Counted from the first letter of the stretch, positions 4,307 to 64,000 are shown. The stretch: DNA of 64,000 bases from an uncultured Pelagibacteraceae bacterium (GCA_902524945.1 CABZFF010000002.1:79811-143810), one strand, 5' to 3'. Numbers and translations: made by a program. The notes: a model not told the origin generated them from the letters alone.

Positions 4307-4430
4307 TTGATTGTACCTTACTATTTAGAAATTTAACTAATTAAAACATATATAATGAAATTTTTTGTAAGAACAATTAAAAACTGATATTAGGTATGCA
4401 TTTTATACATAAATACAATCTAGAATTGAA

Positions 4431-6380: not shown

Positions 6381-6408
6381 TTTGATATATAAAACTCGTT
6401 TAAGAATT

Positions 6409-6493
6409 GGGCAAGTGGCGGAATTGGTATACGCGCTGGTCTTAGAAACCAGTGCCGCAAGGCTTAAGAGTTCGAGTCTCTTCTTGCCCACCA
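6409..6493 (+). tRNA. tRNA-Leu(TAG)
   Basis: Acceptor stem GGGCAAG/CTTGCCC-A-CCA, anticodon arm CTGGT-CTTAGAA-ACCAG, long variable arm, TTCGA T-loop. Confidence 0.97.
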
Positions 6494-6500
6494 AAACATT

Positions 6501-7871: not shown

Positions 7872-7893
7872 TCAATAGTTGTATAAGGCTTCT

Positions 7894-8505: not shown

Positions 8506-8538
8506 AGCACTAGATATAGCTTATCTTACAACTTCAAC

Positions 8539-8567
8539 TTGATATGCCAATCCTGGATAATTATAAT
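8539..8567 (+). promoter_or_regulatory. Sigma70-type promoter of clpX
   Basis: TTGATA (8539-8544)-N17-TATAAT (8562-8567), ending 17 nt before the clpX ATG. Confidence 0.7.
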
Positions 8568-8584
8568 GAATGTATTGATTCGTT

Positions 8585-9838: not shown

Positions 9839-9852
9839 ACTTTAATTTGCTT

Positions 9853-9880
9853 CTTGAAATTATCATATTAATTGTCATAT
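9853..9880 (+). promoter_or_regulatory. Possible RpoH (sigma32)-type promoter of lon
   Basis: CTTGAA (9853-9858)-N15-GTCATAT (9874-9880), 9 nt before the ATG; resembles heat-shock consensus CTTGAA..CCCATAT. Confidence 0.4.
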
Positions 9881-9889
9881 TAAGTATTA

Positions 9890-12274: not shown

Positions 12275-12277
12275 TTT

Positions 12278-13159: not shown

Positions 13160-13210
13160 TATAATTGAGTTATATTAAAACTTATTATAAGTAAATATCA
13201 TCATTTAAAT

Positions 13211-50182: not shown

Positions 50183-50974
50183 ATGATTGGGTTAATTTTT
50201 GGAGAAACAGAATTTCCAAAATATATATTAAAAAAAATTAAAAGAAAAAGTAAATACTTAATTATAGATTTAACAAAAAAAAAAATATTTAAAAAAGATA
50301 AAAATTCTTACTCAGTATCTATTGGTCAATTTGGCAAAATTATTTCAATACTGAAATCAAAAAATTGTAAAAAAGTTTTATTTGCAGGAAAAGTAACAAA
50401 ACCAAATTTTAAATCTATAAAATTGGATTTTAAAGGAATTTATTACATGCCAAAAATTATAAAAAGTTCGAAATTAGGCGATGCAGCAATTTTAAAACAA
50501 ATTATAAATATTTTAAAAAAAGAAAAGATTCAAACTGTTAGATCAAACAAATTTACTCCAGAAATAAGTCTGCCTAAGGGAAATTACACATCAATTAAAC
50601 CAAATACCTCTGATAAAAAAGATATTCTTTGTGGGCAAAAAGCTCTAAAAAAGTCTGGTAATTTTTCATTTACCCAAGGCGCTATTTGTAGAAATAATAA
50701 AATTTTAACAATTGAGGGAAGAGGCGGAACACAAAAAATGATTAAAAAAGTGAAAAAAATAACTAAATTTCCTAATGGAGTACTAATAAAATTCCCAAAA
50801 AAAAGACAAGACTTGAGAGTCGATCTTCCAACTGTAGGATTAGAAACTTTGAAACAATGTAAAATGGCAGGACTAAAAGGAATAGTTCTAAAACATAAAT
50901 TAAATATTTTTTTAAATAAAAGTCAAAGTGTTCAATATGCAAATAGAAATAAAATGTTTATCTTAATTAAATGA
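50183..50974 (+). CDS. lpxI: UDP-2,3-diacylglucosamine diphosphatase LpxI
   Basis: FAGKV.KP, GDAAIL, IEG..GT, QDLRVDLPTVG; position after lpxA. Confidence 0.9.
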   Translation: MIGLIFGETEFPKYILKKIKRKSKYLIIDLTKKKIFKKDKNSYSVSIGQFGKIISILKSKNCKKVLFAGKVTKPNFKSIKLDFKGIYYMPKIIKSSKLGDAAILKQIINILKKEKIQTVRSNKFTPEISLPKGNYTSIKPNTSDKKDILCGQKALKKSGNFSFTQGAICRNNKILTIEGRGGTQKMIKKVKKITKFPNGVLIKFPKKRQDLRVDLPTVGLETLKQCKMAGLKGIVLKHKLNIFLNKSQSVQYANRNKMFILIK

Positions 50975-52026
50975 AAAAATTATTATCAATTTTTCTTCTA
51001 CTATTCACAAATTTAAGTGCTGAAGACTTTAGATTAGAGAAAATTGTTCAAGGGTTTGATAGCCCATGGAGCTTAACATTTATAGACAACCAAAATTTAT
51101 TGGTTACAGAAAAACCAGGAAATATAAAATTTATAAATTTAAAAGAAAAAAAAATAAAAGATATAAGCCATAATCTTAAGGTCTTAGAAGATGGCCAGGG
51201 AGGGTTATTAGATATACTTCACAATGAAAGCATTGTATTTGTTTCATATTCTGAAAATAGATCAAACGGAATGTCTAGCACCTCTGTTGCAAGAGCAAAA
51301 CTTAATACTGAGAAACTTAATTTTAAAAACATCTTTCAAGCCCAACCCCCTATAAATTCTGGATATCATTTTGGATCTAGACTAGTCATAAAAAATAAAC
51401 ATTTATATGTAACCGCTGGTGAGAGAGGACAAGGAATGATAGCCCAAGATCATACTAAACATCCTGGAAGTATTATAAGAATTAACTTAGATGGATCGAT
51501 ACCAAAAGATAATCCAAAATTTATTAATAAAAAAGATTGGTTACCTGAAATTTATCAAATTGGAGTTAGAAATCCTCAGGGCATGTCTCTTTCACCATTT
51601 GATGACAAAATATATTTGACCAATCATGGTGCTAGAGGGGGTGATTGGTTTGGGACAGCAAATTTTGCAGAAAACTATGGATGGAAGATTTTAGGTTGGG
51701 GAGGAACTAATTACTCTGGAACTAAAATTGGTCCAAAATGGAAACCTGGCTTTACAAAAGCAATAAAATACTGGGTTCCTTCTATCGCAGTAAGTGCTAT
51801 GACAATTTATAAAGGTGAAACATTTAAAGAATGGAACGGTGAAGCTTTAATTACATCTCTGAAAGATCAATCTTTAAGAAAAATAAGATTTAATAAATCA
51901 AATTTTATCGATGAAAAAATTTTATTCAAAGGTGATATAGGAAGAATAAGAGATATCAAAATACATGAGAGCGGAGATCTTTATTTACTATCTGACAAGG
52001 GCGAACTTTGGAGAATGTATAAGTGA
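50971..52026 (+). CDS. PQQ-dependent soluble aldose/sorbosone dehydrogenase (GSDH/YliI-like beta-propeller), secreted
   Basis: Signal peptide; PW.L.F, GQGGLLD, HFGSRL, GER, G.RNPQG, HG.RGGD, NYGW, GRIRD. Confidence 0.9.
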   Translation: MKKLLSIFLLLFTNLSAEDFRLEKIVQGFDSPWSLTFIDNQNLLVTEKPGNIKFINLKEKKIKDISHNLKVLEDGQGGLLDILHNESIVFVSYSENRSNGMSSTSVARAKLNTEKLNFKNIFQAQPPINSGYHFGSRLVIKNKHLYVTAGERGQGMIAQDHTKHPGSIIRINLDGSIPKDNPKFINKKDWLPEIYQIGVRNPQGMSLSPFDDKIYLTNHGARGGDWFGTANFAENYGWKILGWGGTNYSGTKIGPKWKPGFTKAIKYWVPSIAVSAMTIYKGETFKEWNGEALITSLKDQSLRKIRFNKSNFIDEKILFKGDIGRIRDIKIHESGDLYLLSDKGELWRMYK

Positions 52027-53153
52027 AAAAAATATTTATTTTAACAGGTGAGCCGTCCGGAGACAAACTCGCATCAAAAGTAATTAAAGAATTTAAAAAA
52101 GATAATGCCGAAATCGAGTATTTAAGTGTAGGAGGTGAAAATTTAGAAGCTTTAGGAATAAAATCAATTTATGATTTAAAAGAGATTACCTACATAGGTT
52201 TTACAAATGTTATAAAAAATATTTTCAAAATTAATAAAAAAATCAATGAAACTGTAAAAGCTATAAAAGATTTTAATCCAGATATTTTATTTACAGTTGA
52301 TAGTCCTGATTTTACTTTAAGAGTTGCTGAGCGCATAAAAAAACAAGATCCAAAGATAAAAACAATTCATTATGTTGCACCACAAGTTTGGGTTTGGAGA
52401 GAAGGAAGGGTTAAGAAAATTAAAAAGTTTATTGATCACATATTATTATTATTTAATTTTGAAAAACCGTATTTTGATAAAGAGAATATGAGCAATGAAT
52501 TTGTGGGCCATCCCTTATTAGATGAGTCTTCTGAAGGTAAAATCGATATCAACCAAATATTTGAAAAAAATAAAGCGTTAATATCAATTTTTCCAGGAAG
52601 TAGAAAAACTGAAATTGAAGTTTTAATGCCTATACTTTTAGATTTTATAAAATTAATGAATAAAAATTATCAAGATTTTATTTATATATTTCACTCGACA
52701 AAGCAACATTATAATTTAATTCAATCTTACGTAAAATCTCAAAATATAAGTAACTGTGAAATTATTAGTGATGATAAAATAAAGTCTCATACTCTTAAGA
52801 AATCTGTATTTGCAGTCGCTAAGTCGGGAACGGTCTCACTTGAAATTTGCAAATCTAAAGTTCCATCTATCATTCTCTATAAAATGAATTTTTTAAATTA
52901 TTTGATTGTAAGGACTTTAGTAAAAGTAAAATTTGCCAATATTATTAATATTGCTGCAGGTAAAGAGGTAATACCCGAATTACTTCAATCTAAGTGTAAT
53001 CCAAAAGATTTATTTAAATCTGTAAGTTCTTTTATTGATGATCCAAATAAGATTAAGGAGCAGGTTGAAAAGACTCAATCGATACTAAATACATTTAAAA
53101 CTGATATTTCCTCATCAACACTTGCTAGTAGAGCTTTAAGTAAATATTTATAA
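52023..53153 (+). CDS. lpxB: Lipid-A-disaccharide synthase
   Basis: GEPSGD, DSPDF, HYVAPQVWVWR, FVGHP, PGSR, KSGT, PELLQ. Confidence 0.97.
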   Translation: MKKIFILTGEPSGDKLASKVIKEFKKDNAEIEYLSVGGENLEALGIKSIYDLKEITYIGFTNVIKNIFKINKKINETVKAIKDFNPDILFTVDSPDFTLRVAERIKKQDPKIKTIHYVAPQVWVWREGRVKKIKKFIDHILLLFNFEKPYFDKENMSNEFVGHPLLDESSEGKIDINQIFEKNKALISIFPGSRKTEIEVLMPILLDFIKLMNKNYQDFIYIFHSTKQHYNLIQSYVKSQNISNCEIISDDKIKSHTLKKSVFAVAKSGTVSLEICKSKVPSIILYKMNFLNYLIVRTLVKVKFANIINIAAGKEVIPELLQSKCNPKDLFKSVSSFIDDPNKIKEQVEKTQSILNTFKTDISSSTLASRALSKYL

Positions 53154-53154
53154 A

Positions 53155-54066
53155 TTACTGGTATTTTGCTTTTTTCAAAGCATCAGCACATATTTTTTGG
53201 GTTAATATTGCTTCATTTATTAAAAGATTTTTTTTATTTTCAATAAATTTTTTTAAACAATCTAAGTATGACTTTCTGTGTCTTACAGAAAAGTCATTAT
53301 ATAACGTCTCTTTGTTAGAAAAATTGTCAGAGTCTAGTGAAAATTTTTCACCTTGAACTTTAATTTTTTCAAAATTTCCAAATCTGCACTTTCTACTAAA
53401 TATTATTTCGACGACTATTCCATTCTTGAGTTTTAGATTGACTACTGCATCTGAGAAATCTCCTTTATTTAAGAAATCCTCAGTACTAATTGATTTTGAA
53501 ATTACAATCATTTTCTCTGGTTTCGAATTACTTAACCAACAAGCTAAATCAAAAAAATGAAATCCTTTATCAAAAAAAAGGCCTCCATTTCTAATTGATA
53601 AATCAACATTATGGTTGGCCGATCTAGATATTATTTCGATATAATTAATTCTTTTTTTGCTAACTTTCTTTTTTAAAGCAACATACTCTTTTGCAAATCT
53701 ACGATTTAAACCAGCACAAAATTTAATTTTATGCTTTTTTATTAAGTTTTTGAGTTTACCAAGTTTATTATTATTATTTGTAATTGGTTTTTCACAATAG
53801 ATCATTTTCTTAAATTTTATCAATCTTTTTATATAAAAATCATGTGTTGTTGTAGGTGATGCAATTACAAATAGTTCTATATCTTTTTTTTTCAATATAC
53901 TATTGAAGTCTTTGGAGGTCTTGCATCTAAATTTTTTAGATAGTCTTTTGCTTAGATTGTAATTTTTATCAAAAATATAATCTAATGAAGTGTTTTTTAT
54001 TTTCATTAAACTTTCGCAATGAATTATACCTACTTTTGATAATCCTATCACACAGGATTTTATCAT
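53155..54066 (-). CDS. Gfo/Idh/MocA family oxidoreductase (inositol 2-dehydrogenase-like)
   Basis: IG...G..H, ASPTTTH, CEKP, GLNRRF, GGLFFDKGFHFFD. Confidence 0.88.
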   Translation of the reverse strand: MIKSCVIGLSKVGIIHCESLMKIKNTSLDYIFDKNYNLSKRLSKKFRCKTSKDFNSILKKKDIELFVIASPTTTHDFYIKRLIKFKKMIYCEKPITNNNNKLGKLKNLIKKHKIKFCAGLNRRFAKEYVALKKKVSKKRINYIEIISRSANHNVDLSIRNGGLFFDKGFHFFDLACWLSNSKPEKMIVISKSISTEDFLNKGDFSDAVVNLKLKNGIVVEIIFSRKCRFGNFEKIKVQGEKFSLDSDNFSNKETLYNDFSVRHRKSYLDCLKKFIENKKNLLINEAILTQKICADALKKAKYQ

Positions 54067-55197
54067 TTAAAAAGCTACCCACTTTTTTTTGGATGATGAC
54101 TTTACACATCCATCTATAAATCTTGCTGTAAGTAAACCCTCGTATGCAGTTGGAAAATAAAACCTTTTGTTGCTATTTTTTGAATTAATTTTTATTGCAA
54201 TTTCTCTATACAAATTAGAAAAAGCGCTCAAATATCCCTCAGGATGACCGTATTTTATTCTTGAAAAGTTTTTTGAGAAAGCACTTTCATTGAAACCTCT
54301 TTCTAAAACTTTTGTAGCTCCATTAGCAGCATTATATTTCAAATAGTTGGGATCATTCTGCACCCATTCTAAACTTCCCTTTGAACCAAATACTCTTATT
54401 CGTAATCCATAAACACCACCCTTAGCAGTGGTTGATGCCCAAAATAAACCCTTCGCTCCATTCTCATAATTTATGAAAACTTGAGCATTTGTATCAAATC
54501 TAATTTTTTTTGAATATTGTTTGATATCTGCAAATAATCTTTTTCCTTTAAGACCAGTAATGTAATTACATAAATGATATGCATGAGATCCTATTTCATT
54601 TAGCACAGTAGAAACTCCGGCTATTTTTTTATCTAACTTCCATTTAAATATCTTTTTTGCAGAATCAGGAGTAACTTTTTTACCATTAGACCAGTCCTGG
54701 ACATATTCGACATTAATATACTCAATATTTCCAAGTTTCTTATCTTCCACCAATTTTTTAGCATGCCTTACCATTGGGTAGGCTGAATAATTATGTGTAA
54801 GTCCGTAAACAATTTTTTTATTATTCTTAATTGTCTTATAAAGTTTTTTAGCTTGAGTTAGAGAACCTGCAAAAGGTTTATCGGAAATTACATGAATGTT
54901 ATTTTTAATAAATAATTCTGCTATCTCTTGGTGACTTCCAGGAGGTGTCATAATTGCCACCACATCAATACCATTTTTAATTTTTTTTTCAAAATAGCAA
55001 AGATCTTTATAATTTTTGTAACATCTATTTTTTTTTATACCTATACTTGTCCCAAAAGATTGATTAATTCTAAAATTTCTTGAAAAAACGCCTGCTACGA
55101 TCTCATATTTATCATCAAATCTTGAGGCAATTCTATGTACATGACCAATCCAAGATCCAGGACCACCACCAATGATACCAAGTTTAAGTCTTTTCAT
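54067..55197 (-). CDS. Gfo/Idh/MocA family oxidoreductase
   Basis: GIIGGG.GSWIG.VH, TP...H, HVISDKP, HNYSAYPMVR, YVQDW, GHPEGY. Confidence 0.9.
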   Translation of the reverse strand: MKRLKLGIIGGGPGSWIGHVHRIASRFDDKYEIVAGVFSRNFRINQSFGTSIGIKKNRCYKNYKDLCYFEKKIKNGIDVVAIMTPPGSHQEIAELFIKNNIHVISDKPFAGSLTQAKKLYKTIKNNKKIVYGLTHNYSAYPMVRHAKKLVEDKKLGNIEYINVEYVQDWSNGKKVTPDSAKKIFKWKLDKKIAGVSTVLNEIGSHAYHLCNYITGLKGKRLFADIKQYSKKIRFDTNAQVFINYENGAKGLFWASTTAKGGVYGLRIRVFGSKGSLEWVQNDPNYLKYNAANGATKVLERGFNESAFSKNFSRIKYGHPEGYLSAFSNLYREIAIKINSKNSNKRFYFPTAYEGLLTARFIDGCVKSSSKKKWVAF

Positions 55198-56642
55198 TAG
55201 TTTACTCTTATTTTTTTTCCAGTTTTAGTACTTCTTAGTATGGCATCAAATATTTTAAGCGATTGCAAGCCATCATTTCCACTTACTTTTGGTTTAGCTT
55301 TTCCAGACACAACATCGCATAAGTGATCAATTTGATTTATTAAAGTAAATCTGCTCAAACGAATATTAAGATCCTTATGATAGATTGGTTTCCACCAACT
55401 TCTCTCACCTCTATTATACCAATGTTTTAAATTAGGAAATTGTATCGAGCCTTTCGTCCCCCCAATAAAATATGCTGATTGATTTGTTATAGGGTATGCA
55501 GGATTTTCTCCAGCTGTAAGCTCATAACTGTAAGGAGCTACAATTGTATCAGAAACACTTAATGTACATAAAGTGCCTGATCTAAAAATAAAATTAACTA
55601 TTGCGGTATCTTCAACTTCATATTTTCTAATTTTATTTGAGGTTGTTGCTTGAACATGTGTTATGGGACCTAGCAAGTAACAAATAAGATCAATATCATG
55701 TACTAGATTAATACCTAGAGGACCTCCTCCTTTTTTAATACGCCATTTTTCTTTGTACCAATCTTTATTTTTGTATAACCAGCACATAACATTAGCAGCA
55801 ACAATTTTTCCAAGATTTCCGCTATCAATTTGTTTCTTTACTTTAGTTACGATACTGTTGTGCCTTCTATGATAGCCAATAAGTAGATGAGTTTTATTTT
55901 TTTTTGAGCTTTGAATAATTTTTTTTGCTTTTGAAATATTATCAGAAATTGGTTTTTCTAATAAAACAGGTATTTTTGAATTTAAAAAACTTATCGTATG
56001 TTTTTCATGAAATTGATTGGGTGTAGCTACAATTACAGCATCTGGTTTATTGTTATTAAGTAATTCAGTCGACGATCTGTAGAATGGAACTTTAAATTTT
56101 TTAGCATGTGCTATAGAATTTTTATTCACATCTACAATTGAATGGAGTTTTGCTTTTTTTGAAACCCTTAAAGCTTTTAAATGTTGACTTCCCATCAATC
56201 CAATCCCAACAACTGCAATCTTTATTTTGTTTTTCACTTTAAATTTGAAATTGAATTTATAGTTATTTTGCCGATAGCCGCTTTTTATGACTTTAAGGTA
56301 GTATTTTGCAGGCTTTAAAATAGGAGTTTTTCTTTTCATGAAGTAATACATTACATTTTTATTTTTTTTATTAAAAAATTTTTTTATATATAACTTAGGA
56401 TAGTCTTCGTATCTATCTAATTTTTTCTCAGTTGTTTTATCTATTTCATAGATAATACCTTTCACACTTGAACCCTTTTTTCTTTGTATATCTGGTACCC
56501 TATATTTTGATCTAAAGACTAATTCAAAATTTTTTAAAATATGCTTGCTTAGATATTTAGCGTTTTTATATTTTTTTAAAAAAATTTTTTTATTAAGATT
56601 TGTACCATAAGCAAAGTACAAACGTTTCTTAGTATTTATCAT
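55197..56642 (-). CDS. Fusion of a gamma-glutamylcyclotransferase-like domain and a Gfo/Idh/MocA oxidoreductase
   Basis: N-terminal LYFAYGTNL...V.GIIY...LDRYE.YP..Y (GGCT/AIG2 fold), then IAVVGIGLMG, ATPN..H, EKP, GYHRRH, GGG...INLVHDID; ATG 56642 overlaps the upstream TAA. Confidence 0.82.
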   Translation of the reverse strand: MINTKKRLYFAYGTNLNKKIFLKKYKNAKYLSKHILKNFELVFRSKYRVPDIQRKKGSSVKGIIYEIDKTTEKKLDRYEDYPKLYIKKFFNKKNKNVMYYFMKRKTPILKPAKYYLKVIKSGYRQNNYKFNFKFKVKNKIKIAVVGIGLMGSQHLKALRVSKKAKLHSIVDVNKNSIAHAKKFKVPFYRSSTELLNNNKPDAVIVATPNQFHEKHTISFLNSKIPVLLEKPISDNISKAKKIIQSSKKNKTHLLIGYHRRHNSIVTKVKKQIDSGNLGKIVAANVMCWLYKNKDWYKEKWRIKKGGGPLGINLVHDIDLICYLLGPITHVQATTSNKIRKYEVEDTAIVNFIFRSGTLCTLSVSDTIVAPYSYELTAGENPAYPITNQSAYFIGGTKGSIQFPNLKHWYNRGERSWWKPIYHKDLNIRLSRFTLINQIDHLCDVVSGKAKPKVSGNDGLQSLKIFDAILRSTKTGKKIRVN

Positions 56643-57292
56643 TAAAAAATTTTGTTTGAGATTTGAACTTGGTCTGGATGAATACAAGCTTTACCACCAA
56701 AACCTAATTTTTTTACAAAATTACATGATTTTTCAAATCCATTTAAATCTTTAAAGTTTAAAAAAGAAGTATCTATTGGACTCTTAATATTTTTGGATTT
56801 ATTTACTATATTTTTTCTAAATTCTAATATTTCTTTTTCATCTTCTGAAATCTTAAGATTTATAGATTTAGCTAAATCATGAGAGCCAAAAGATATAATT
56901 TGAATTCTTTCCGAAAAAGAGCAAATTTCCTCAAGATTAGCTAGACCGTTTATACTTTCCAAAATTGGGATTATATCAGTTTTCAATTTCTCAGTTTTTT
57001 TTAATAATATATCTATCTCAATTAATTGTTTTTTTGTTTCTGTAAATGGAAGAAATATTCCAGGGAATTTTTCTGATGTAACAAATTCTAAATCTGAATT
57101 ATTATTTATCCTTATATATGTTTGATCTTTATTGACATTGCATTCTTTAATTATTTTTTTAGCCTGATCTTTCTGATCTTCAGGAACAGTTGATTCTAAG
57201 TCAAGAACTATTAAATCTGAATTTAATGTATAAGCTTTTTTAATTTTTTTTTCTTCATGTCCCGGAACAAATAAAACAGATCTATATTTCAT
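56642..57292 (-). CDS. CitE/HpcH-HpaI family CoA-ester lyase, C-terminally short
   Basis: RSVLFVPG, LDLE, YIRIN, PILES, FGSHDL, GFGGKACIHPDQV. Confidence 0.85.
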   Translation of the reverse strand: MKYRSVLFVPGHEEKKIKKAYTLNSDLIVLDLESTVPEDQKDQAKKIIKECNVNKDQTYIRINNNSDLEFVTSEKFPGIFLPFTETKKQLIEIDILLKKTEKLKTDIIPILESINGLANLEEICSFSERIQIISFGSHDLAKSINLKISEDEKEILEFRKNIVNKSKNIKSPIDTSFLNFKDLNGFEKSCNFVKKLGFGGKACIHPDQVQISNKIF

Positions 57293-58370
57293 ATTTACTT
57301 AATTTATTGTAATCCAGGTCAATACCTAGACCTGGTCCTGAAGGTAATTTATATTTCCCATTTAATGCTCTTTTGAAATTAGGGTAAAATTCTTGATCGA
57401 TATCTAAATAGAATCTCTCAATATAGGTATCTTTTTCCATTAATGAAGCTAATTGAAGTGTAGCTAAAAAACCTGGTCCAAAATAAGCAGTGTGAGGCAT
57501 TACAGAGACATTATTTTTTTCTGCATGCTGAATAATTTTGAACATTTCATAAATACCACCAACTTTAATTACTGATGGTTGAACAAAAGTAACTGCTTTT
57601 TGTTTGATTATTGATTTAAACTCAAATTCTGTACACGCATTCTCCCCGCAGGCTATGGGTATTCCAAGTTCTTCATTCAATTTTGCAAGAGTTTCATAAT
57701 CTTCCGGCGGGTAAATAGGTTCTTCCAACCAAGTTAGTTTCATACTTTTTAAAAAATCTTTTTTGGATAATGTTTCTTCATAAGTCCAAGGACAATTAGT
57801 ATCTAACATTAAAGGAAGATTACCTGTTCCTTTTCTTCCAGCTTCAATGCAATCATTTTCTATTTCATGAAGTTTTATAGCTTGGTAACCATCATCTAAT
57901 GATCGCTTACATTTTTGCTCTATAATTTTTGGATCTCCATATCTAAAAAGACTTGAATAGGCTTTAAATAGATCTTTATTTTTTTTTCCTAACAATTCAT
58001 GAATTGGCTTATTTTTTTCTTTGCCTAAAGCATCCCATAATGCAATTTCAACACCAGATATTGCAAATATCGTTATCCCGTATCTGCCAAATAAGTGCAA
58101 AGATTTTTGAAGAGTTAAAAGAAGTTCCGGTATATTACTCATATCTTTTCCAACGAGTAAAGGAGCCACCATTTCTTCAATTGCTATTTTTACTGCTTTC
58201 CAACTTGTATAACCAAAGGCTTCACCCCAACCAGTGATACCTTTATCTGTTTCAATTTTTACTAAGTTAAATTCTAAACTTTTCCATTCTTTTCCATGAA
58301 AAATTACCTTTTTTCCTCCATGGCTAAACGGCATACTCAAAGTGATTGCTTTGATTGATTTAATTTTCAT
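57282..58370 (-). CDS. Mandelate racemase/muconate lactonizing (enolase superfamily) enzyme
   Basis: GWGEA, SGVEIALWD, KLH, LDTN, WLEEP, GEN, QPSVIKVGG, PH, PGLG. Confidence 0.92.
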   Translation of the reverse strand: MKIKSIKAITLSMPFSHGGKKVIFHGKEWKSLEFNLVKIETDKGITGWGEAFGYTSWKAVKIAIEEMVAPLLVGKDMSNIPELLLTLQKSLHLFGRYGITIFAISGVEIALWDALGKEKNKPIHELLGKKNKDLFKAYSSLFRYGDPKIIEQKCKRSLDDGYQAIKLHEIENDCIEAGRKGTGNLPLMLDTNCPWTYEETLSKKDFLKSMKLTWLEEPIYPPEDYETLAKLNEELGIPIACGENACTEFEFKSIIKQKAVTFVQPSVIKVGGIYEMFKIIQHAEKNNVSVMPHTAYFGPGFLATLQLASLMEKDTYIERFYLDIDQEFYPNFKRALNGKYKLPSGPGLGIDLDYNKLSKYEI

Positions 58371-59140
58371 TATCTAAATTTTTTGAAATTTGGCTTTCTT
58401 TTTTCTAGAAAGGCCTTTGCGCCTTCAGCCTGTTCTCCAGTTTTAAAATAATCAGGAGCAACTTCCTCGACCATACCTTTTTGGGTAATTTTTAAAATTT
58501 CTTCAAATTGTTTTCTAAAACTGGCCTTTAATATCTTTAAACAAGTTGGTGCAGCTTTTAAAATTTCATCGCCATACTTTTTAACTTCCTCATCTAATTT
58601 ATCTTTCTTCACTACTGAATTTACCAAACCCCAATTCATCATCTCTTTTGCTGAGTATCTTTTGCAAGTCATCCACATTTCTCTTGCACGTTTGTGTCCT
58701 AAAATATTTGCAGAGTGGGCAACTATAGCTCCTCCTGCTGGAGAACCAACTCTGGGGCCATTTTGACCAAATATAGAATTTTCACTTGCAATAGTTAAAT
58801 CACAAAAGTAAGCCATATGATTTCCACCACCAATCGCGTATCCATCCACTTTAGCTATGATTGGTTTGCTACATTTTGTTAAGTGAATGTGAAATTCGTA
58901 TTCATGATCTTGAAATTCTATAGAGCTTTCCCAGTTCATATCTCCACCTGAGCAAAATGCTCTATCTCCAGAACCTGATAAAACAATTACTCCAACTTCT
59001 TTATCTTTTTCTGCAGCGTCGAGAGATGCCTTAAGTTCTTGAAGAGTTACTGGTGTAAAAGCGTTTAATACCTTAGGTCTATTAATAGTGACATGAGCGT
59101 AATCACCTTTAACTTCATATAATATATCTTTAAATTGCAT
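58370..59140 (-). CDS. Crotonase superfamily protein, BadI/MenB-like
   Basis: NRP.VLNAF, AFCSGGD, GYAIGGGN, FGQNGPRVGS, KRAREMW..C.RY, AFLEKRKPNF. Confidence 0.88.
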   Translation of the reverse strand: MQFKDILYEVKGDYAHVTINRPKVLNAFTPVTLQELKASLDAAEKDKEVGVIVLSGSGDRAFCSGGDMNWESSIEFQDHEYEFHIHLTKCSKPIIAKVDGYAIGGGNHMAYFCDLTIASENSIFGQNGPRVGSPAGGAIVAHSANILGHKRAREMWMTCKRYSAKEMMNWGLVNSVVKKDKLDEEVKKYGDEILKAAPTCLKILKASFRKQFEEILKITQKGMVEEVAPDYFKTGEQAEGAKAFLEKRKPNFKKFR

Positions 59141-61043
59141 GAGATCTAATCTCCTCTACAGATTCTGGATTTAATAGCGTTGATAAATCACCTGGATCTT
59201 GGTTTGCTAAACATGATTTTATAACTCTTCTCATAATTTTCATATTTCTTGTTTTAGGCAAATCTTTTACAAAAATTACCTTATCAGGCTTAAATGATTT
59301 CCCTAAATCTTTTATAACTAAATCTTCAAAAAAACTTTCTTTTTGATCATTATTTTCTGCAGGAACTATAGATAAAATTATTTTTGACCCTTTATTTGCG
59401 TCAGGTATTCCAACAGCAGCAACCTCTTTTACTTTTCCACTTTTTACTATTACACTCTCAAGCTCAGAAGGACCTATTCTTTTACCTGATACTTTAATGG
59501 TATCATCAGATCTACCATGTAAATACCAATGACCATCAGCATCTCTACTTGCAAGATCACCATGCACCCAATAATCTTTAATTACGCTCCAATAATTATC
59601 GATGTAACGCTTATCATCATTCCATAAGCTCTTAGTTAATCCGATTGATGATTTTCTCATGACTAATTCGCCCATTTCATTTGTGGAAACTTTTTGTCCA
59701 TCTAAATTTAAGATATCCGCGCTCATTCCAGGAATAGGAGCATTAAAAGATCCAACCTTAAAAGGACGATGTAAACAACAATGTAATATAGAACCAGAAA
59801 CCTCAGTGCCCCCAGCTGAATTCATAATAGGAACTTTTGATTTTCCTATGACTTGAAATAACCATTTCCAAGGTTTTTCTGTCCAAGGTTCTCCTCCCGT
59901 ACAAATCATTCTTAATGAACTTAAATCTAAATCTTTAAAACGTTTTTCATCTTTAATCATTTGTGCTCTGATGAGAGCAGGGGAAAGCTCTGTCCAGGAA
60001 ACCTTATATTTTTCTATTAGTTTCCAAAAACGAACTTCATCAGGAAAATCAGGAACTCCCTCAGCTATTACCATTTGCGCTCCATGTGCAGAAGCTATTG
60101 TTGCAGACTTAGAACCCACCATCCATCCCATATCAGCCATACACAAATGAATATCAGTTTGTTTAAAGTCTGCTAAAACTCCTTCATCAAAAGACATCTT
60201 AGCAACTAAACCAATATGGGTATAAACACATCCTTTCGGTTTTCCAGTTGTACCTGATGTAAAGTGGATAATAGCAGGATCTTCAGCATCAGTTTCCTCT
60301 GTCTTTAAATTATCAGAAACATTTTGAAAATTTTCCCAATTAAAGATTTTCTTTCCTTTCTCTTTTCCCAATAAAAAAATTTTTTCTAAAGAAATGACTT
60401 GATCTAATTCACTTTTGATTTGATCAAACATTCTTATTTCTTTTGCTTTTCTAAATGTTTTTTCAACAGTAAAAATACCTTTAGCTTTTGCTATGTTGAG
60501 TCTTTCAATAACTGCCTTTGGTCCATATCCAGAGAATAAAGGTAGCACTACACACCCAATTTTTAAAATAGCAAAGTAAGCAATGTAAGTTTCTATAAAT
60601 TGAGGCATGTAAAGTGCGATCACATCACCTTTTTTAAAGCCATTTATTTTTAAAGTATTCCCAATTTTTGAGATTTGCTTATCAAATCCTTTATAAGTAA
60701 TTGAGCTTTCTTTCCCGTCTTCTCTTTCGGCAAAAATAAAAGTATCTTTAAAAAATTCCTTATCTTTATGTCGATCTATACAATTTAAAACTATATTAGT
60801 TTTTCCCCCGATACACCACTTTGTCCAAGGAGTCCCTTTTGTTTCATCTGATATTTTTGAGTAAGGTTTATAAAATTTTAAATCTGAAAATTTTATTACA
60901 CTGTCCCATAACCATCCTGGATCAGAAAAACTTTTTTTTTCTAACTCATCATAATTTTTTAATTTACAATGCTGTATAAACTTAGTCAGCTTTGAATTTT
61001 CAATTTGCTCTTTTGATGGTTGCCAAATAATTTCTTTAGACAC
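59130..61043 (-). CDS. AMP-forming acyl-CoA synthetase (acetoacetate/acetate-CoA ligase-like)
   Basis: FTSGTTGKPKG, ADMGWMVG, GGTE, HGD, GRSDDTIKVSGKR, LPKTRNMK. Confidence 0.92.
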   Translation of the reverse strand: MSKEIIWQPSKEQIENSKLTKFIQHCKLKNYDELEKKSFSDPGWLWDSVIKFSDLKFYKPYSKISDETKGTPWTKWCIGGKTNIVLNCIDRHKDKEFFKDTFIFAEREDGKESSITYKGFDKQISKIGNTLKINGFKKGDVIALYMPQFIETYIAYFAILKIGCVVLPLFSGYGPKAVIERLNIAKAKGIFTVEKTFRKAKEIRMFDQIKSELDQVISLEKIFLLGKEKGKKIFNWENFQNVSDNLKTEETDAEDPAIIHFTSGTTGKPKGCVYTHIGLVAKMSFDEGVLADFKQTDIHLCMADMGWMVGSKSATIASAHGAQMVIAEGVPDFPDEVRFWKLIEKYKVSWTELSPALIRAQMIKDEKRFKDLDLSSLRMICTGGEPWTEKPWKWLFQVIGKSKVPIMNSAGGTEVSGSILHCCLHRPFKVGSFNAPIPGMSADILNLDGQKVSTNEMGELVMRKSSIGLTKSLWNDDKRYIDNYWSVIKDYWVHGDLASRDADGHWYLHGRSDDTIKVSGKRIGPSELESVIVKSGKVKEVAAVGIPDANKGSKIILSIVPAENNDQKESFFEDLVIKDLGKSFKPDKVIFVKDLPKTRNMKIMRRVIKSCLANQDPGDLSTLLNPESVEEIRSHAI

Positions 61044-61048
61044 AAGTC

Positions 61049-61993
61049 TTATACGTACATACCCTCTTTAATCTTAATAATATTATACATGAGGTCATTT
61101 AAAGGTGTTTTAATCCCATGTTTTTTTCCAATTTTAGACACAGCTCCACTTATGAAATCAATTTCTGTTTTTCTATGCTTTACAACATCGAATGCCATAG
61201 ATGATTTATTGGTTTGTCTTGAGTCTACTATTCTGTTGAACATTTCTAAACAATCACTTTCACTAACATCAACTCCATCGGCTTTTGCTACTTCTCTAGT
61301 TTCAAGGATTATATCCTTACCTAATTTTCGAGACATAGTCTGATTTTTATTAGAAATGTATAAATCTGTATGATGTAAATCGAATATTGCAGATAACGGA
61401 CCAATTGCTGTTAAAGCAAATAATTTCATCCATTTTCTTCTTTTGATATTTTCTTCTGCAATAGTTTCTAAGCCATGTGCAGTAAAAGTTTCAGCTAAAT
61501 CTTTTACCCTTTCACTTGAACCACCTTCGTATTCACCAATCCATGATGGCAAACTTGCGTGGTTTTGAATTATTCCAGGACCTTGAATACTAGAAGCTTG
61601 TGTTGTAGAACCACCTAAAACTTTTTCTTTACCAGCTATTTTTTGCATGATTTCTTCATGCCCAATACCATTTTGAAATGACATTAACACTGTATTATCT
61701 CCGATAATATTTTTTGAATTGGATAAAGCTTGCTCTAAAGCTGTAGCTTTACACATAATAATTATTGCATCGACTGGCTTTAAAGTTTTTGGATCAGTTG
61801 TAGCATGGATTTTTACTATTCTATCTCCGCCATGACCCATCATTTTTAAACCTTTACTATTAATTTCGTCTACATGTTCTTTCCAAACATCAATAAGATG
61901 AACCTCTAAACCTTTTTCAGCTAACAACCCACCGAAAAGACAGCCCATAGCACCAGCACCTAATACTGCAACTTTTGTATCTTTCTTTATCAT
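61049..61993 (-). CDS. Ketopantoate reductase (PanE/ApbA) family protein
   Basis: VLGAGAMG, CKA, FQNGIG, W.KL, SSMAFD, TEIDFISG. Confidence 0.88.
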   Translation of the reverse strand: MIKKDTKVAVLGAGAMGCLFGGLLAEKGLEVHLIDVWKEHVDEINSKGLKMMGHGGDRIVKIHATTDPKTLKPVDAIIIMCKATALEQALSNSKNIIGDNTVLMSFQNGIGHEEIMQKIAGKEKVLGGSTTQASSIQGPGIIQNHASLPSWIGEYEGGSSERVKDLAETFTAHGLETIAEENIKRRKWMKLFALTAIGPLSAIFDLHHTDLYISNKNQTMSRKLGKDIILETREVAKADGVDVSESDCLEMFNRIVDSRQTNKSSMAFDVVKHRKTEIDFISGAVSKIGKKHGIKTPLNDLMYNIIKIKEGMYV

Positions 61994-63030
61994 TAAGCTT
62001 TCATTTTAACTTGAACACCAAAGAAGCCTGTTGGCTTGATCATTAAAACAACAATCATTAATAAAAAGGCGTATAAATCTTTGTGACTTCCAGAAATATA
62101 AAAAGAAGAAGCTGTTTCAAATATTCCAACTGTAAAACCTCCAACTATTGCACCAGGCAGATTACCAAAACCACCTACGACCGCAGCAGCAAAAGCTTTC
62201 ATAAGAATGATATAACCCATGAATACAACAACTTGATAAGTTGGACCTACTAAAGTTCCTCCGATACCTGCTATGGCACAGGCAATACCAAAAATAATTG
62301 ATATGTATAGTGGCACGTTTATTCCAACTAGATTTGAAACATCTTTAGAGTAAGCTACGGCTCTGATACCTAATCCCATTTTTGTTTTATTTAAAAAGAA
62401 CCAAAGACCTGCTGCTACAGATAAACCAACGACTATCATCCAAATATAAGTAATCGGTAAAAATAGTCCTCCTATTTCCATTGGCAAACCTAATTCAGCA
62501 GGGAAAGGTTTTGCTACTGGATTCCAAATTAAATAAGCAACGTTTATTAAAACCACTGAAAGACCAAATCCACATATGATTATTCCCATTCCAGCTACGG
62601 TGTAACCACCACCTTTTTTTGTTAGAGGTCTTAAGAAAACTCTTTCAATAAAAACTCCAAATAAACCCATTGAAACAAAGGCTGTAAATAAACAAACAAC
62701 ATAAATTATCCAACCATAAGCATCAGGAAATATATTAAAAATCCAGTCTTGATTACCTAAAAGATTAAACATAGTCAGACCGGCAAAAGCACCTATCATG
62801 AAAAATTCACCGTGAGAAAAATTAACTACATCTAGACCTGTGTAGATTAACGAAATTCCAAGAGCAACTAAGCCATAAATAATACCAACAGATAGACCAA
62901 TTGTTAAAACTGATTTAAGTGACTCAATACTCATATCGGGGCTGCTTACACACCAGCCGATGTAAAGAAGCACGAATGTTCCGAATATGATATTTTCACC
63001 TTTTTTTCCGATTCTCAATTTATTAAACAT
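61993..63030 (-). CDS. livH: Branched-chain amino acid-type ABC transporter permease (LivH-like)
   Basis: G..YGLVALG.SLI....VVNFSHGE, GLGIRAVA, KAFAAAVVGGFG, KPTGFFG. Confidence 0.9.
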   Translation of the reverse strand: MFNKLRIGKKGENIIFGTFVLLYIGWCVSSPDMSIESLKSVLTIGLSVGIIYGLVALGISLIYTGLDVVNFSHGEFFMIGAFAGLTMFNLLGNQDWIFNIFPDAYGWIIYVVCLFTAFVSMGLFGVFIERVFLRPLTKKGGGYTVAGMGIIICGFGLSVVLINVAYLIWNPVAKPFPAELGLPMEIGGLFLPITYIWMIVVGLSVAAGLWFFLNKTKMGLGIRAVAYSKDVSNLVGINVPLYISIIFGIACAIAGIGGTLVGPTYQVVVFMGYIILMKAFAAAVVGGFGNLPGAIVGGFTVGIFETASSFYISGSHKDLYAFLLMIVVLMIKPTGFFGVQVKMKA

Positions 63031-63742
63031 TGGCTTTAGTACCCCCAAGATAAGACTCTTTTACACTTTCGTCGTACATTAATTTCTTACTATCGCCCTC
63101 AACATTTATCACACCGTCTTTAATTACATATCCGTAATCAGCAAGCAATAATGCCATCCTAATATTTTGTTCTACCACAAGAACTGTTAATCCATCTTGT
63201 CTAATTCTATTAATATTTTTAAAGATATCTAAAACTATTTGAGGCGCTAGAGCAGCACTGGGCTCGTCTAGCATTATCATTTTAGGATTAGACATTAACC
63301 CTCTTCCAATACATAACATTTGCAACTCTCCACCTGATAAAGTTGCGGCCAACTGATCTTTTCTTTCATTTAATCTTGGAAAATAGTTATAAACTTTTTC
63401 TAAATTATCTGACAGTTGTTGTTTGCTTTTTAAAATAAATCCACCTAATTTTAAATTTTCAGTGACAGACATTGCAGGGAAAACATCCTTTCCTTGAGTT
63501 ACCTGTACTAATCCTCTTCCAACTATTTCGTGAGCAGGCAAGTTTTGAATTTGCTCACCGTTAAATTCGATTGTACCTTTCCATGATCTAATTAATCCAG
63601 ATGCAGCTCTTAAGATAGTTGATTTGCCTGTCCCATTACCACCGAGCAATGCAACTATAGATTGTTTCTCAACTTTCATATTAGCTCCATTTAAAATTTG
63701 TACAGAGCCATATCCAGAAATAAGTTGATCTATCTTAAGCAA
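63023..63742 (-). CDS. livF: Branched-chain amino acid-type ABC transporter ATP-binding protein (LivF-like)
   Basis: GGNGTGKST, TLSGGE.QML, LDEPS, VEQN, YLGG; TTG start with GGAGG SD at 63747-63751. Confidence 0.92.
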   Translation of the reverse strand: MLKIDQLISGYGSVQILNGANMKVEKQSIVALLGGNGTGKSTILRAASGLIRSWKGTIEFNGEQIQNLPAHEIVGRGLVQVTQGKDVFPAMSVTENLKLGGFILKSKQQLSDNLEKVYNYFPRLNERKDQLAATLSGGELQMLCIGRGLMSNPKMIMLDEPSAALAPQIVLDIFKNINRIRQDGLTVLVVEQNIRMALLLADYGYVIKDGVINVEGDSKKLMYDESVKESYLGGTKANV

Positions 63743-63797
63743 TTATCCTCCAAATTTTTTTCTTGATTTACCAAAAATGTAACTATTAGTCATAGAC

Positions 63798-63827
63798 ATT
63801 ATAACTATTATTTTATAGCCTTAGCAA
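63798..63827 (-). promoter_or_regulatory. Sigma70-type promoter for the leftward catabolic operon
   Basis: Minus strand TTGCTA (63827-63822)-N18-TATAAT (63803-63798). Confidence 0.5.
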
Positions 63828-63853
63828 CAATTAAATAACAAATGGGGGAAATA

Positions 63854-64000
63854 ATGAATAAACTAAAATTTGTTTTTTCAGCAATTGTCTTTTCCGCAGG
63901 TTTAGTGATCACAACTTTAGCTCAAGCAGAAACAATCAAAATTGGTGTTTCTTTTAGAATGCTATCTGATGTTGGTTACAAACACGGAGAGTTAATTACT
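63854..64000 (+). CDS. ABC transporter periplasmic substrate-binding protein (LivJ/K-like), 5' partial
   Basis: Manual translation MNKLKFVFSAIVFSAGLVITTLAQA-ETIKIGVSFRMLS...; signal peptide with AQA cleavage site, then the IKIG motif typical of Leu-binding-type SBPs; GGGGG SD; divergent from livF. Confidence 0.75.
   Translation, partial: MNKLKFVFSAIVFSAGLVITTLAQAETIKIGVSFRMLSDVGYKHGELIT

What the first reader, a model, noticed from the sequence alone, without database searches (positions are those of the whole stretch)
53155..63742. Uncharacterised 10-gene CoA-dependent catabolic operon with a LIV-type transporter
Ten minus-strand genes overlap or lie within 5 bp of each other behind one sigma70-like promoter. 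In order they are livF, livH, a PanE-like 2-oxoacid reductase, an acetoacetyl-CoA-synthetase-like ligase, a BadI/MenB-like crotonase, an enolase-superfamily enzyme, a CitE-like lyase, a GGCT-Gfo fusion and two more Gfo/Idh/MocA dehydrogenases. A binding-protein gene is divergent. Established family chemistry: Gfo/Idh enzymes oxidise polyol/cyclitol hydroxyls, AACS-like ligases activate (keto)acids, BadI-type crotonases cleave cyclic beta-ketoacyl-CoA, MR-type enzymes dehydrate or racemise hydroxy acids, and CitE-type lyases do retro-aldol cleavage of CoA esters. Inference: a pathway for a hydroxylated, possibly cyclic or amino-acid-conjugated organic acid from dissolved organic matter. It matches no pathway I can name; the substrate is unknown, and the last Gfo genes may be a separate module.
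Basis: inference. Interest (0 to 1): 0.7.

Follow-up and report, generated by a model that had tools for sequence, protein, structure and literature searches.

The report
Mosaic SAR11 organic-acid catabolic island
This is a real accessory gene island of the ocean bacterium SAR11, apparently transcribed at sea, that pairs a nutrient importer with unusual enzymes for breaking down a still-unidentified hydroxylated organic acid, but it is a patchwork of modules rather than one fixed ten-gene pathway.

Summary
The ten tightly packed minus-strand ORFs exist and their family assignments hold. Four corrections apply.

1. **The "GGCT-Gfo fusion" is a 1-nt deletion.** All fetched relatives and most metagenome and metatranscriptome contigs have two separate genes.
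2. **The cluster is larger.** The SBP arm continues on contig C23 as 2OG oxygenase, livM, livG, PhyH dioxygenase and EamA.
3. **It is a mosaic.** In SAR11 the constant genes are PhyH, the five LIV genes, PanE, ligase, crotonase, enolase-type enzyme, CitE and gfo1. GGACT, gfo2, gfo3 and the 2OG oxygenase vary. A PanE-2OG-PhyH-EamA module stands alone in another genus.
4. **Four enzymes depart from their namesakes.**
   - The ligase has an enlarged acyl pocket.
   - The crotonase lacks the MenB/BadI catalytic Asp.
   - The enolase-type enzyme has K-x-H and Q-P-S in place of K-x-K and Q-P-D.
   - CitE ends at the hinge Phe, so it has no lid or catalytic Asp.

The island occurs in 58 of 401 Pelagibacteraceae genomes, in two genera. 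It matches no described pathway (bad/ali, men, iol). The substrate is unknown; sugar-acid-like chemistry combined with a CoA branch fits best. Another reader of this scan saw the same ligase-crotonase-enolase triad on other DNA.

The parts
63854..64000 (+). 5' end of the divergent periplasmic binding-protein gene (Peripla_BP_6, HAAT/LIV type). It has a signal peptide ending AQA/E. The gene is cut by the contig end about 1 kb after the window. The full-length relative is 400 aa.
63743..63853 (.). 111-bp divergent intergenic region with the best sigma70-like match (TTGCTA-18-TATAAT, minus strand, 63827-63798) and SD-like GGAGGA and GGGGGA sequences. No Rfam element was found.
63023..63742 (-). 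livF-like ABC ATPase (239 aa)
61993..63048 (-). livH-like permease (BPD_transp_2, 351 aa from the TTG start)
61049..61993 (-). PanE/ApbA-family 2-oxoacid/2-hydroxyacid oxidoreductase (314 aa). It is cluster-specific in these genera and not housekeeping. Its nearest solved structure is 3wfi (133 bits), well ahead of E. coli KPR (about 70 bits).
59130..61043 (-). ACS-family AMP-forming CoA ligase (637 aa, ACAS_N plus AMP-binding). Acetate-pocket residues are replaced (W414 to G, V386 to G, V310/T311 to M/V, S. enterica numbering). The catalytic Lys is kept.
58370..59140 (-). Crotonase of a distinct MenB/BadI-related clade (256 aa). The GQNGPRVGSPA motif is invariant, with Ala in place of the catalytic Asp, and the Tyr loop is shortened.
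57282..58370 (-). Enolase-superfamily enzyme (362 aa) of a small subfamily. The D190/E216/E243 metal ligands and His293 are kept. The beta2 motif is K166-L-H168, and beta6 reads Q-P-S266 instead of Q-P-D.
56642..57292 (-). Lid-less CitE/HpcH-fold protein (216 aa). The Arg and the Glu/Asp Mg ligands are kept. The protein ends at the conserved hinge Phe, so the C-terminal lid with its pantetheine contacts and catalytic Asp is absent. DLED has become DLES.
56240..56642 (-). GGACT/AIG2-like small gene (134 aa from the ATG at 56642). It is accessory, being absent from many SAR11 versions. In this window it is fused in frame to gfo1.
56242..56243 (.). Site of the 1-nt deletion relative to relatives and environmental contigs. 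It removes the GGACT stop (TAT TAA) and creates the apparent fusion.
55197..56237 (-). gfo1: Gfo/Idh/MocA dehydrogenase (346 aa from the GTG), a core member of the SAR11 cluster. Nearest structures are WlbA-type sugar 3-dehydrogenases (about 100 bits).
54067..55197 (-). gfo2: Gfo/Idh/MocA dehydrogenase (376 aa), accessory
53155..54066 (-). gfo3: short Gfo/Idh/MocA dehydrogenase (303 aa), accessory and divergent (54-93% identity among relatives). Its stop lies 1 nt from the convergent lpxB stop.

Best explanation
The locus is an accessory, mosaic catabolic island of two SAR11 (Pelagibacteraceae) genera. It encodes a complete five-component HAAT/LIV-type ABC importer, split over two divergent operons. 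Alongside it are enzymes that most likely take up and degrade a hydroxylated carboxylic acid, probably sugar-acid-like or a 2-hydroxy acid. The route would combine steps on the free acid with steps on a CoA thioester.

Proposed roles (the order is inferred, not shown):
- Gfo-type dehydrogenases oxidise hydroxyl or hemiacetal groups.
- The K-x-H/Q-P-S enolase-superfamily enzyme removes the alpha-proton of the free carboxylate and dehydrates or epimerises it, giving or handling a 2-oxo-3-deoxy (4-hydroxy-2-oxo) acid.
- The PanE-type enzyme interconverts 2-oxo and 2-hydroxy forms.
- The lid-less CitE/HpcH-fold Mg enzyme makes or breaks a C-C bond next to a 2-oxo or 2-hydroxy acid, possibly without CoA.
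- The ACS-like ligase, with its enlarged pocket, activates a C3-C6 acid.
- The Asp-less MenB/BadI-clade crotonase transforms that CoA ester.
- The PhyH and 2OG-Fe(II) dioxygenases on the other arm add hydroxyl groups.

GGACT, gfo2 and gfo3 are optional add-ons. The substrate is not identified.
For: Shown:
- Tight co-directional packing.
- Constant gene set and order in about 45 SAR11 contigs at 70-100% identity with intact ORFs.
- The missing transporter parts and PhyH lie on contig C23 of the same genome.
- PanE occurs only together with the crotonase in genera g1 and g2.
- RNA-library contigs from two studies cover 30/30 and 26/30 bins and bridge the livF/livH, livH/panE, lig/crot, crot/enol and GGACT/gfo1 junctions.
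- The ligase keeps its catalytic motifs but has W414G and V386G.
- ACAS_N-type ligase and GSPA crotonase are adjacent in SAR11, L069, L241, L071/L072 and Burkholderiales.
- lig-crot-enol is kept in SAR11, L069 and L241.
- The enolase subfamily sits with an NAD-epimerase-type dehydrogenase, a mutarotase and an MFS transporter in L357; with an SMP-30 lactonase in L069, L323 and L347; and with an NAD-epimerase-type gene in SAR11 L054.
- Its best NCBIfam hits are arabinonate and galactonate dehydratases.
- The alternative tails carry DUF1907, an HpaH-like FAH hydratase, an SDR and a PanB-like gene. DUF1907 is a beta-keto sugar-acid decarboxylase in humans (PMC12337341).

Inferred: the direction (catabolic, because of the importer), the order of steps and the substrate class.
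Against: - No substrate is identified, and LIV-type binding proteins are not known sugar-acid binders.
- In about 25 long metagenome loci the enolase subfamily is not next to the ligase or crotonase, so the free-acid and CoA parts may be independent.
- In L241 the triad has no transporter and sits among housekeeping genes, which would also fit biosynthesis.
- Module A (PanE-2OG-PhyH-EamA) stands alone in another genus.
- The lid-less CitE may be inactive.
- RNA-library contigs can contain DNA and cannot prove a single transcript.
- All family assignments are by homology below the curated equivalog cutoffs.
Confidence: 0.5

Rival explanations
1. First reader's model. One ten-gene CoA-dependent pathway in which the acid is activated by the ligase, a cyclic beta-ketoacyl-CoA is opened by a BadI-type crotonase, and a CitE-type lyase performs retro-aldol cleavage of a CoA ester. 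The substrate would be a cyclic or amino-acid-conjugated acid.
For: The families are right. Ligase-crotonase adjacency is conserved across phyla. A full-length CitE follows the triad in L069, and a CitE lies nearby in Burkholderiales. In genus g8 the related module A lies beside inositol-like genes (Gfo, ThDP enzyme, aldehyde dehydrogenase).
Against: There is no acyl-CoA dehydrogenase or BadH/BadK partner. The SAR11 CitE lacks the lid that binds pantetheine and carries the catalytic Asp. Only 8 of the 10 genes are constant, and the fusion is an indel.
Confidence: 0.15
2. The genes are neighbours in an island hot-spot next to lpxB but belong to two or three functionally independent modules for different substrates. 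These would be LIV importer plus ligase-crotonase; enolase-CitE-Gfo sugar-acid oxidation; and the PanE-2OG-PhyH-EamA module.
For: Module A stands alone in g8. The enolase subfamily usually lacks ligase or crotonase neighbours. TRAP, M24 hydrolase and epimerase genes are inserted between crot and enol in L054/L042. The tails vary. L311 shows a rearranged architecture.
Against: The modules are interleaved rather than merely adjacent: PanE lies between livH and the ligase, 2OG between SBP and livM, and PhyH after livG. The genes are translationally coupled. The same 12 genes stay together across two genera. Three unrelated lineages keep lig-crot-enol. L072 combines lig and crot with PanE, PhyH and DUF1907.
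Confidence: 0.25
3. The core is biosynthetic or salvage rather than catabolic. It could be a MenC/MenE/MenB-like three-step unit making a cyclic CoA product, or a pantoate-related route using PanE (and the PanB-like gene in variants).
For: The triad stands alone among housekeeping genes in L241. PanE passes the TIGR00745 subfamily cutoff and is the only PanE in the genome. A PanB-like gene occurs in variants.
Against: MenB, MenC and ligase scores are far below cutoffs and catalytic residues differ. High-quality genomes of the same genus lack both the cluster and PanE, so it is not essential. The genome has its own PanB and PanC elsewhere. The cluster is welded to an importer.
Confidence: 0.07

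Closest known systems
Menaquinone steps MenC (o-succinylbenzoate synthase), MenE (OSB-CoA ligase) and MenB (DHNA-CoA synthase)
   Same: The same three superfamilies (enolase, AMP-forming ligase, crotonase) are encoded side by side. The crotonase's nearest solved structures are type-I MenB (200-215 bits).
   Different: The ligase is ACS-like (637 aa, ACAS_N) and not MenE-like. The enolase-type enzyme resembles acid-sugar dehydratases rather than OSBS (62 against a cutoff of 200). The crotonase has Ala for the catalytic Asp and a shorter Tyr loop. There are no menD/F/H/A genes here, and the cluster is linked to an importer.
Cyclohexanecarboxylate/benzoate bad-ali pathway (AliA, AliB, BadK, BadH, BadI) of Rhodopseudomonas palustris
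   Same: A LIV-type transporter, CoA ligase and BadI-related crotonase occur in one locus. JGI annotates homologs as 2-ketocyclohexanecarboxyl-CoA hydrolase.
   Different: The BadI model scores 246 against a cutoff of 468. The Asp is replaced. There is no acyl-CoA dehydrogenase, no BadH-type SDR and no BadK in the window. Enolase, CitE, PanE and Gfo genes have no counterpart.
Non-phosphorylative sugar and aldarate routes (sugar dehydrogenase, lactonase, enolase-superfamily dehydratase, HpcH/HpaI aldolase such as GarL, and a reductase such as GarR); from established knowledge
   Same: A Gfo dehydrogenase, enolase-superfamily enzyme, HpcH/CitE-fold Mg lyase and NAD(P) reductase lie in one operon. 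A lactonase is present in L069. The same enolase subfamily sits with a mutarotase and a sugar-type dehydrogenase in L357. An SDR plus FAH-family pair occurs in variant tails.
   Different: The transporter is LIV-type and not a sugar type. The lyase is CitE-like by sequence and not a GarL/YfaU-type aldolase. A CoA ligase, a crotonase and two Fe/2OG dioxygenases are added. The dehydratase active site is atypical.
CitE-like CoA-ester lyases (malyl-CoA lyase, CLYBL, Rv2498c, RipC)
   Same: TIM-barrel HpcH_HpaI domain. The Arg and the Glu/Asp Mg ligands are conserved. The best solved-structure hits are CLYBL 5vxc (69 bits), 8khl and malyl-CoA lyase.
   Different: The protein ends at the hinge Phe. 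The domain-swapped lid (about 55 aa) that binds pantetheine and carries the conserved catalytic Asp is absent in all SAR11 copies but present in L069 and Hydrogenophaga (PMC3832036).

Membership tests
BadI (2-ketocyclohexanecarboxyl-CoA hydrolase) / bad-ali pathway | Score above the curated equivalog cutoff of TIGR03210 | tested here: not met
   245.7 bits against a cutoff of 467.6
BadI / MenB | Catalytic Asp in the GS-x-D motif (E. coli MenB Asp163) | tested here: not met
   GSPAGG aligned against GSFDGG. Ser-Pro-Ala is invariant in 10 clade members.
bad-ali pathway | Partner genes: acyl-CoA dehydrogenase (AliB), hydratase (BadK), SDR (BadH) | tested here: not met
   None among the ten ORFs or on the C23 arm
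MenB / MenC / MenE (menaquinone) | Equivalog scores for MenB (TIGR01929) and MenC (TIGR01928), and a MenE-type ligase | tested here: not met
   MenB 233 against 343. MenC 62 against 201. The ligase's best hit is ACS; the o-succinylbenzoate-CoA ligase model scores 154 against 748.
myo-inositol iol pathway | IolG equivalog score, plus IolD (ThDP hydrolase), IolE, IolB and IolC in the cluster | tested here: not met
   IolG model TIGR04380 scores 141, 50 and 156 against a cutoff of 355 for the three Gfo proteins. There is no ThDP enzyme, inosose dehydratase or kinase in the window cluster. An IolD-like ThDP enzyme is seen only beside the g8 module.
Acetyl-CoA synthetase (acetate-specific) | Acetate pocket Trp414 with Val386 and Val310/Thr311 (S. 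enterica numbering) | tested here: not met
   DTWWQTE aligns to NSAGGTE. V386 aligns to G, and VT to MV. Equivalog score 461 against 725.
AMP-forming acyl-CoA ligase superfamily | AMP-binding core, C-terminal domain and catalytic Lys in the LPKTRSGK motif | tested here: met
   PF00501 232 bits and PF13193 54 bits. TSGTTGKPKG and LPKTRNMKIMRR are present.
CitE-like CoA-ester lyase superfamily | TIM barrel with Arg and Glu/Asp Mg ligands | tested here: met
   R4, E85 and D139 are invariant with full-length homologs
CitE-like CoA-ester lyase superfamily | C-terminal domain-swapped lid with pantetheine contacts and the conserved catalytic Asp | tested here: not met
   All SAR11 copies (213-217 aa) end at the hinge Phe216. 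L069 and L209 continue for about 55-60 aa with the VDxxxVDxP segment. The role of the lid is taken from PMC3832036.
Enolase superfamily, MR subgroup | Three carboxylate metal ligands at the ends of beta3, beta4 and beta5 | tested here: met
   D190, E216 and E243 are invariant
Enolase superfamily, MR subgroup | K-x-K at beta2 and a His-Asp dyad at beta7/beta6 | tested here: not met
   K166-L-H168 and Q-P-S266, with His293 kept. The same signature occurs in 60 of 90 full-length representatives.
HAAT/LIV-type ABC importer | Binding protein, two permeases and two ATPases | tested here: met
   SBP, livF and livH lie on C2; livM and livG lie on C23 of the same genome. All five are contiguous in relatives such as L029. 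Substrate specificity was not tested.
Ketopantoate reductase (housekeeping PanE) | Present as part of pantothenate synthesis irrespective of the island | tested here: not met
   In genera g1 and g2, PanE (40/137 and 20/35) tracks the crotonase (38/137 and 19/35) and lies 3 kb from it. High-quality genomes of the same genus lack both.

The most novel reading that the evidence does not exclude
The island encodes an undescribed hybrid pathway for an abundant but unrecognised marine dissolved-organic-matter compound, such as a sugar-acid-, cyclitol- or 2-hydroxy-acid-type molecule. In this reading three enzyme superfamilies carry out new chemistry: an Asp-less MenB/BadI-clade crotonase working with an ACS-like ligase, a K-x-H/Q-P-S enolase-superfamily enzyme, and a lid-less CitE that has become CoA-independent.
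Probability: 0.3. Interest if true: 0.8.

Novelty: new variant of a known kind. Interest (0 to 1): 0.6.

Why it matters
SAR11 is the most abundant heterotroph in the surface ocean, and its tiny genomes keep few genes without use. This is a 12-gene accessory island, plus optional genes. It is found in about one in seven sampled Pelagibacteraceae genomes, in metagenomes from several studies and in metatranscriptome libraries, so it probably marks a carbon source that separates ecotypes.

The island contains four enzymes that depart from their characterised relatives at defining residues. It therefore offers concrete targets for assigning function in the crotonase, enolase and CitE superfamilies. 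The binding protein offers a direct handle for identifying the compound.

The corrections made here matter for anyone who would clone these genes: the fusion is an indel, the second arm carries dioxygenases, the architecture is mosaic, and CitE is lid-less.

Tried and rejected
- **PanE as housekeeping ketopantoate reductase.** Rejected by co-occurrence.
- **L084/L036 (one contig) as an independent fusion.** Rejected: a stop codon separates the two genes in one frame.
- **Burkholderiales/Bradyrhizobium 59% crotonase family as orthologous clusters.** Their adjacent ligase is only 22-25% identical and the contexts differ (ETF, CoA-transferases, PrpD), so they were not used for substrate inference.
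- **Universal lig-crot-enol triad.** Rejected: about 25 long metagenome loci with the enolase subfamily lack ligase and crotonase.
- **Regulatory RNA.** No Rfam match at E <= 1 in 53000-64000.
- **Promoter and terminator scan.** Counts were not above shuffled sequence.
- **Literature.** Searches for SAR11 with these enzyme names, for PhyH, for PanE and for crotonase plus enolase-superfamily clusters found nothing relevant.
- **DUF1907 in the window's genome.** Not found; the genome is 86.6% complete and the control genomes also gave no match.
- **Specific substrates considered and not supported by any test:** pantoate, mandelate-type 2-hydroxy acids, aldarates, deoxy-sugar acids, ectoine-like compounds, mycosporine-like amino acids, hydroxycinnamates.

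Full report
**Organism and setting.** The window has about 30% GC. It lies on contig C2 (79811-143810) of a 1.01-Mb, 86.6%-complete genome in 30 contigs. Related loci are almost all single-cell genomes labelled Pelagibacteraceae/SAR11. The genes convergent on the cluster are lpxA, lpxI, a GSDH-family gene and lpxB, so the cluster abuts core lipid-A genes.

**Observation.** Ten minus-strand ORFs occupy 53155-63742. Junctions are overlaps of 26, 1, 11, 1, 11, 1 and 1 nt or gaps of 5, 2 and 0 nt. Every curated equivalog score is far below its cutoff, for example:

| Model | Score (bits) | Cutoff (bits) |
|---|---|---|
| BadI | 246 | 468 |
| MenB | 233 | 343 |
| ACS | 461 | 725 |
| CitE | 109 | 443 |
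| IolG | up to 156 | 355 |

Only the PanE subfamily model passes (247 against 141). The divergent gene is a Peripla_BP_6 binding protein with a signal peptide, and it is cut by the contig end. The best sigma70-like site lies in the 111-bp intergenic region. Such sites are no more common than in shuffled sequence (48 found against 54.2 expected). No Rfam element is present.

**The "fusion".**
- In near-identical relatives the GGACT part and the Gfo part lie in different frames.
- An alignment shows that the window lacks one base (AAAT-TT against AAATATT). That base completes the GGACT stop codon (TAT TAA), 2 nt before the Gfo GTG start.
- Of the fetched loci, 58 have the two parts in different frames and 74 have Gfo only. 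The two apparent single-frame cases, L084 and L036 (two extracts of one contig), have a stop codon between the genes.
- Public contigs carry the extra base at 56242 in DNA run X1 (26.2 of 26.2 depth), RNA runs X15 (16.4 of 16.4) and X17 (3.1 of 3.1), and partly in DNA run X2 (38.4 of 82.3).
- The fused ORF is therefore an assembly error or at most a minority allele.
- The likely GGACT start is the ATG at 56642, which overlaps the citE stop by one base.

**True extent.** In relatives with longer flanks the other arm reads SBP, 2OG-Fe(II) oxygenase (288 aa), livM, livG, PhyH-family dioxygenase (327 aa), EamA. In the window's own genome these genes are on the 3.9-kb contig C23. The transporter is therefore complete, and two dioxygenases belong to the locus.

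**Mosaic structure.**
- A presence/absence matrix over about 45 distinct SAR11 contigs shows a constant set: PhyH, livG, livM, SBP, livF, livH, panE, lig, crot, enol, citE and gfo1.
- The variable genes are the 2OG oxygenase, GGACT, gfo2 and gfo3.
- An alternative tail carries an SDR, a 256-aa FAH-family protein related to HpaH/MhpD hydratases, DUF1907 and a PanB-like gene.
- L054 and L042 have a TRAP transporter, an M24 creatinase-type hydrolase and an NAD-epimerase-type gene inserted between crot and enol.
- The metagenome contig L311 shows yet another arrangement.
- In a third genus (g8, complete 1.4-1.5 Mb genomes) a module of PanB-like, a 137-aa gene and DUF1907, divergent from PanE, 2OG, PhyH and EamA, stands alone. 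Its shared genes are 48-77% identical to the island's versions (PanE, DUF1907 and PanB-like 71-77%, 2OG and PhyH 61-64%, EamA 48%). It lies beside Gfo, a 614-aa ThDP enzyme, an aldehyde dehydrogenase and an HpcH aldolase.
- DUF1907 was recently shown to be the beta-keto-L-gulonate decarboxylase in humans (PMC12337341).

**Distribution.** The crotonase was found in 58 of 401 Pelagibacteraceae genomes, only in genera g1 (38/137) and g2 (19/35), and in none of 136 genomes of g8. PanE-family genes track it in g1 and g2 (40/137 and 20/35) at a distance of 3 kb. High-quality genomes of the same genus lack both. The genome has its own PanB and PanC elsewhere. PanE is thus part of the island and not a housekeeping gene.

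**Outside SAR11.**
- L069 (a Hyphomicrobiales MAG) has Gfo, livG and livM divergent from livF, livH, an unassigned 263-aa gene, an SMP-30 lactonase, a second crotonase, an unassigned 246-aa gene, lig, crot, enol and a full-length CitE.
- L241 (a 1.7-Mb MAG) has lig-crot-enol alone among housekeeping genes.
- Chloroflexi L071 and L072 have SDR-lig-crot. L072 also has DUF1907, PanE and PhyH.
- Another reader of this scan noted the same triad in another genome (e1-2868768).
- In Burkholderiales and Bradyrhizobium, a 57-60% identical crotonase follows a very divergent ACAS_N ligase in a CoA-transferase, PrpD, CitE and ETF context.

**Enzyme peculiarities.**
- *Ligase.* Against Salmonella ACS, W414 becomes G, V386 becomes G and V310/T311 become M/V. 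The catalytic Lys motif is kept.
- *Crotonase.* GSFDGG becomes GSPAGG. GQNGPRVGSPA is invariant in ten members from SAR11 to Mycobacterium.
- *Enolase-type enzyme.* The metal ligands and the beta7 His are kept. Beta2 is K-L-H and beta6 is Q-P-S instead of Q-P-D.
  - Only 368 representative clusters reach E <= 1e-30 among 1.84 billion proteins.
  - 60 of 90 full-length top hits share the signature.
- *CitE.* All SAR11 copies are 213-217 aa and end at the conserved hinge Phe, whereas the L069 and Hydrogenophaga homologs continue.
  - In malyl-CoA lyases the missing domain is a domain-swapped lid.
  - That lid binds pantetheine and carries the presumed catalytic Asp conserved in the superfamily (PMC3832036).
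- *PanE.* It is nearest to 3wfi (133 bits) and much further from E. coli KPR (about 70 bits).
- *gfo1.* It is nearest to WlbA-type sugar 3-dehydrogenases at only about 100 bits.

**Test of the triad.** A metagenome scan with an alignment of divergent signature-bearing enolase members returned 80 loci. Apart from the SAR11-type contig L311, none of about 25 long loci has the ligase or crotonase nearby. Some have the SMP-30 lactonase, LIV parts or a second enolase paralog. In L357 the operon reads MFS transporter, NAD-epimerase-type dehydrogenase, enolase-type gene, aldose 1-epimerase, OprD porin. The wider context of this subfamily is therefore oxidation of sugars to acids, acting on free acids. 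The ligase-crotonase pair is a separate unit that has joined it in a few lineages.

**Expression and environment.** Marine metagenome runs hold about half of the operon's 31-mers; 20 runs from 9 studies hold the stretch or part of it. Metatranscriptome contigs from two studies cover 30/30 and 26/30 bins and bridge five gene junctions. RNA libraries may contain DNA, and contigs cannot prove a single transcript.

**Interpretation.** The locus is a real, conserved accessory island, apparently transcribed, that couples an importer to enzymes for a hydroxylated organic acid. It mixes free-acid chemistry (Gfo, enolase type, PanE, lid-less CitE) with CoA chemistry (ligase, crotonase) and oxygenases.
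- It is not the bad/ali, men or iol pathway.
- The specific mechanistic assignments (BadI ring cleavage, CitE cleavage of CoA esters, a GGCT-Gfo fusion enzyme, one fixed ten-gene operon) do not.
- The substrate remains unknown, and the order of steps is inference.

Noticed in passing
window 50971-52026 (+): A GSDH-family (glucose/sorbosone dehydrogenase, PF07995) gene sits between lpxI and lpxB inside the lipid-A gene string lpxA-lpxI-GSDH-lpxB. It is conserved in relatives, and in L054 it lies directly after gfo1.
   Followed up: partly
window 53152 and 63853: Environmental contigs differ from the window by single-base deletions at 53152 (next to the lpxB stop; X1, X2 and X15) and at 63853 (just before the SBP ATG; minority depth in X1 and X2). 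These could be further homopolymer-type assembly errors or polymorphisms.
   Followed up: no
L238 (G080:C1:752500-772400) and L239: In another SAR11 genus a stand-alone module (PanB-like, a 137-aa gene and DUF1907, divergent from PanE, 2OG oxygenase, PhyH and EamA) lies beside Gfo genes, a 614-aa ThDP enzyme, an aldehyde dehydrogenase, an HpcH aldolase, a D-2-hydroxyacid dehydrogenase and TRAP/ABC transporters. It looks like an uncharacterised polyol or sugar-acid locus in complete Pelagibacter genomes.
   Followed up: partly
L054 10816-15714 (and L042): A SAR11 variant of the island has DctP, an M24 creatinase/prolidase-type hydrolase, DctQ, DctM and an NAD-epimerase-type gene inserted between the crotonase and a 60%-identical enolase-type gene.
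   Followed up: partly
L209 (Hydrogenophaga sp. ANAO-22) 2362-15405: The GSPA crotonase clade in Burkholderiales follows a 660-aa ACAS_N ligase. Around it are ETF alpha/beta, a second ligase, a crotonase, two family-III CoA-transferases, MmgE/PrpD and a full-length CitE. This is a widespread uncharacterised acid-CoA cluster.
   Followed up: partly
L311 (metagenome contig Ga0222652_1000002): A third architecture of the island: livH and livF on one strand, and SBP, 2OG oxygenase, lig, crot, enol, citE, gfo1 and gfo3 on the other. No PanE hit lies between them.
   Followed up: no
They were not examined here.
   Followed up: no
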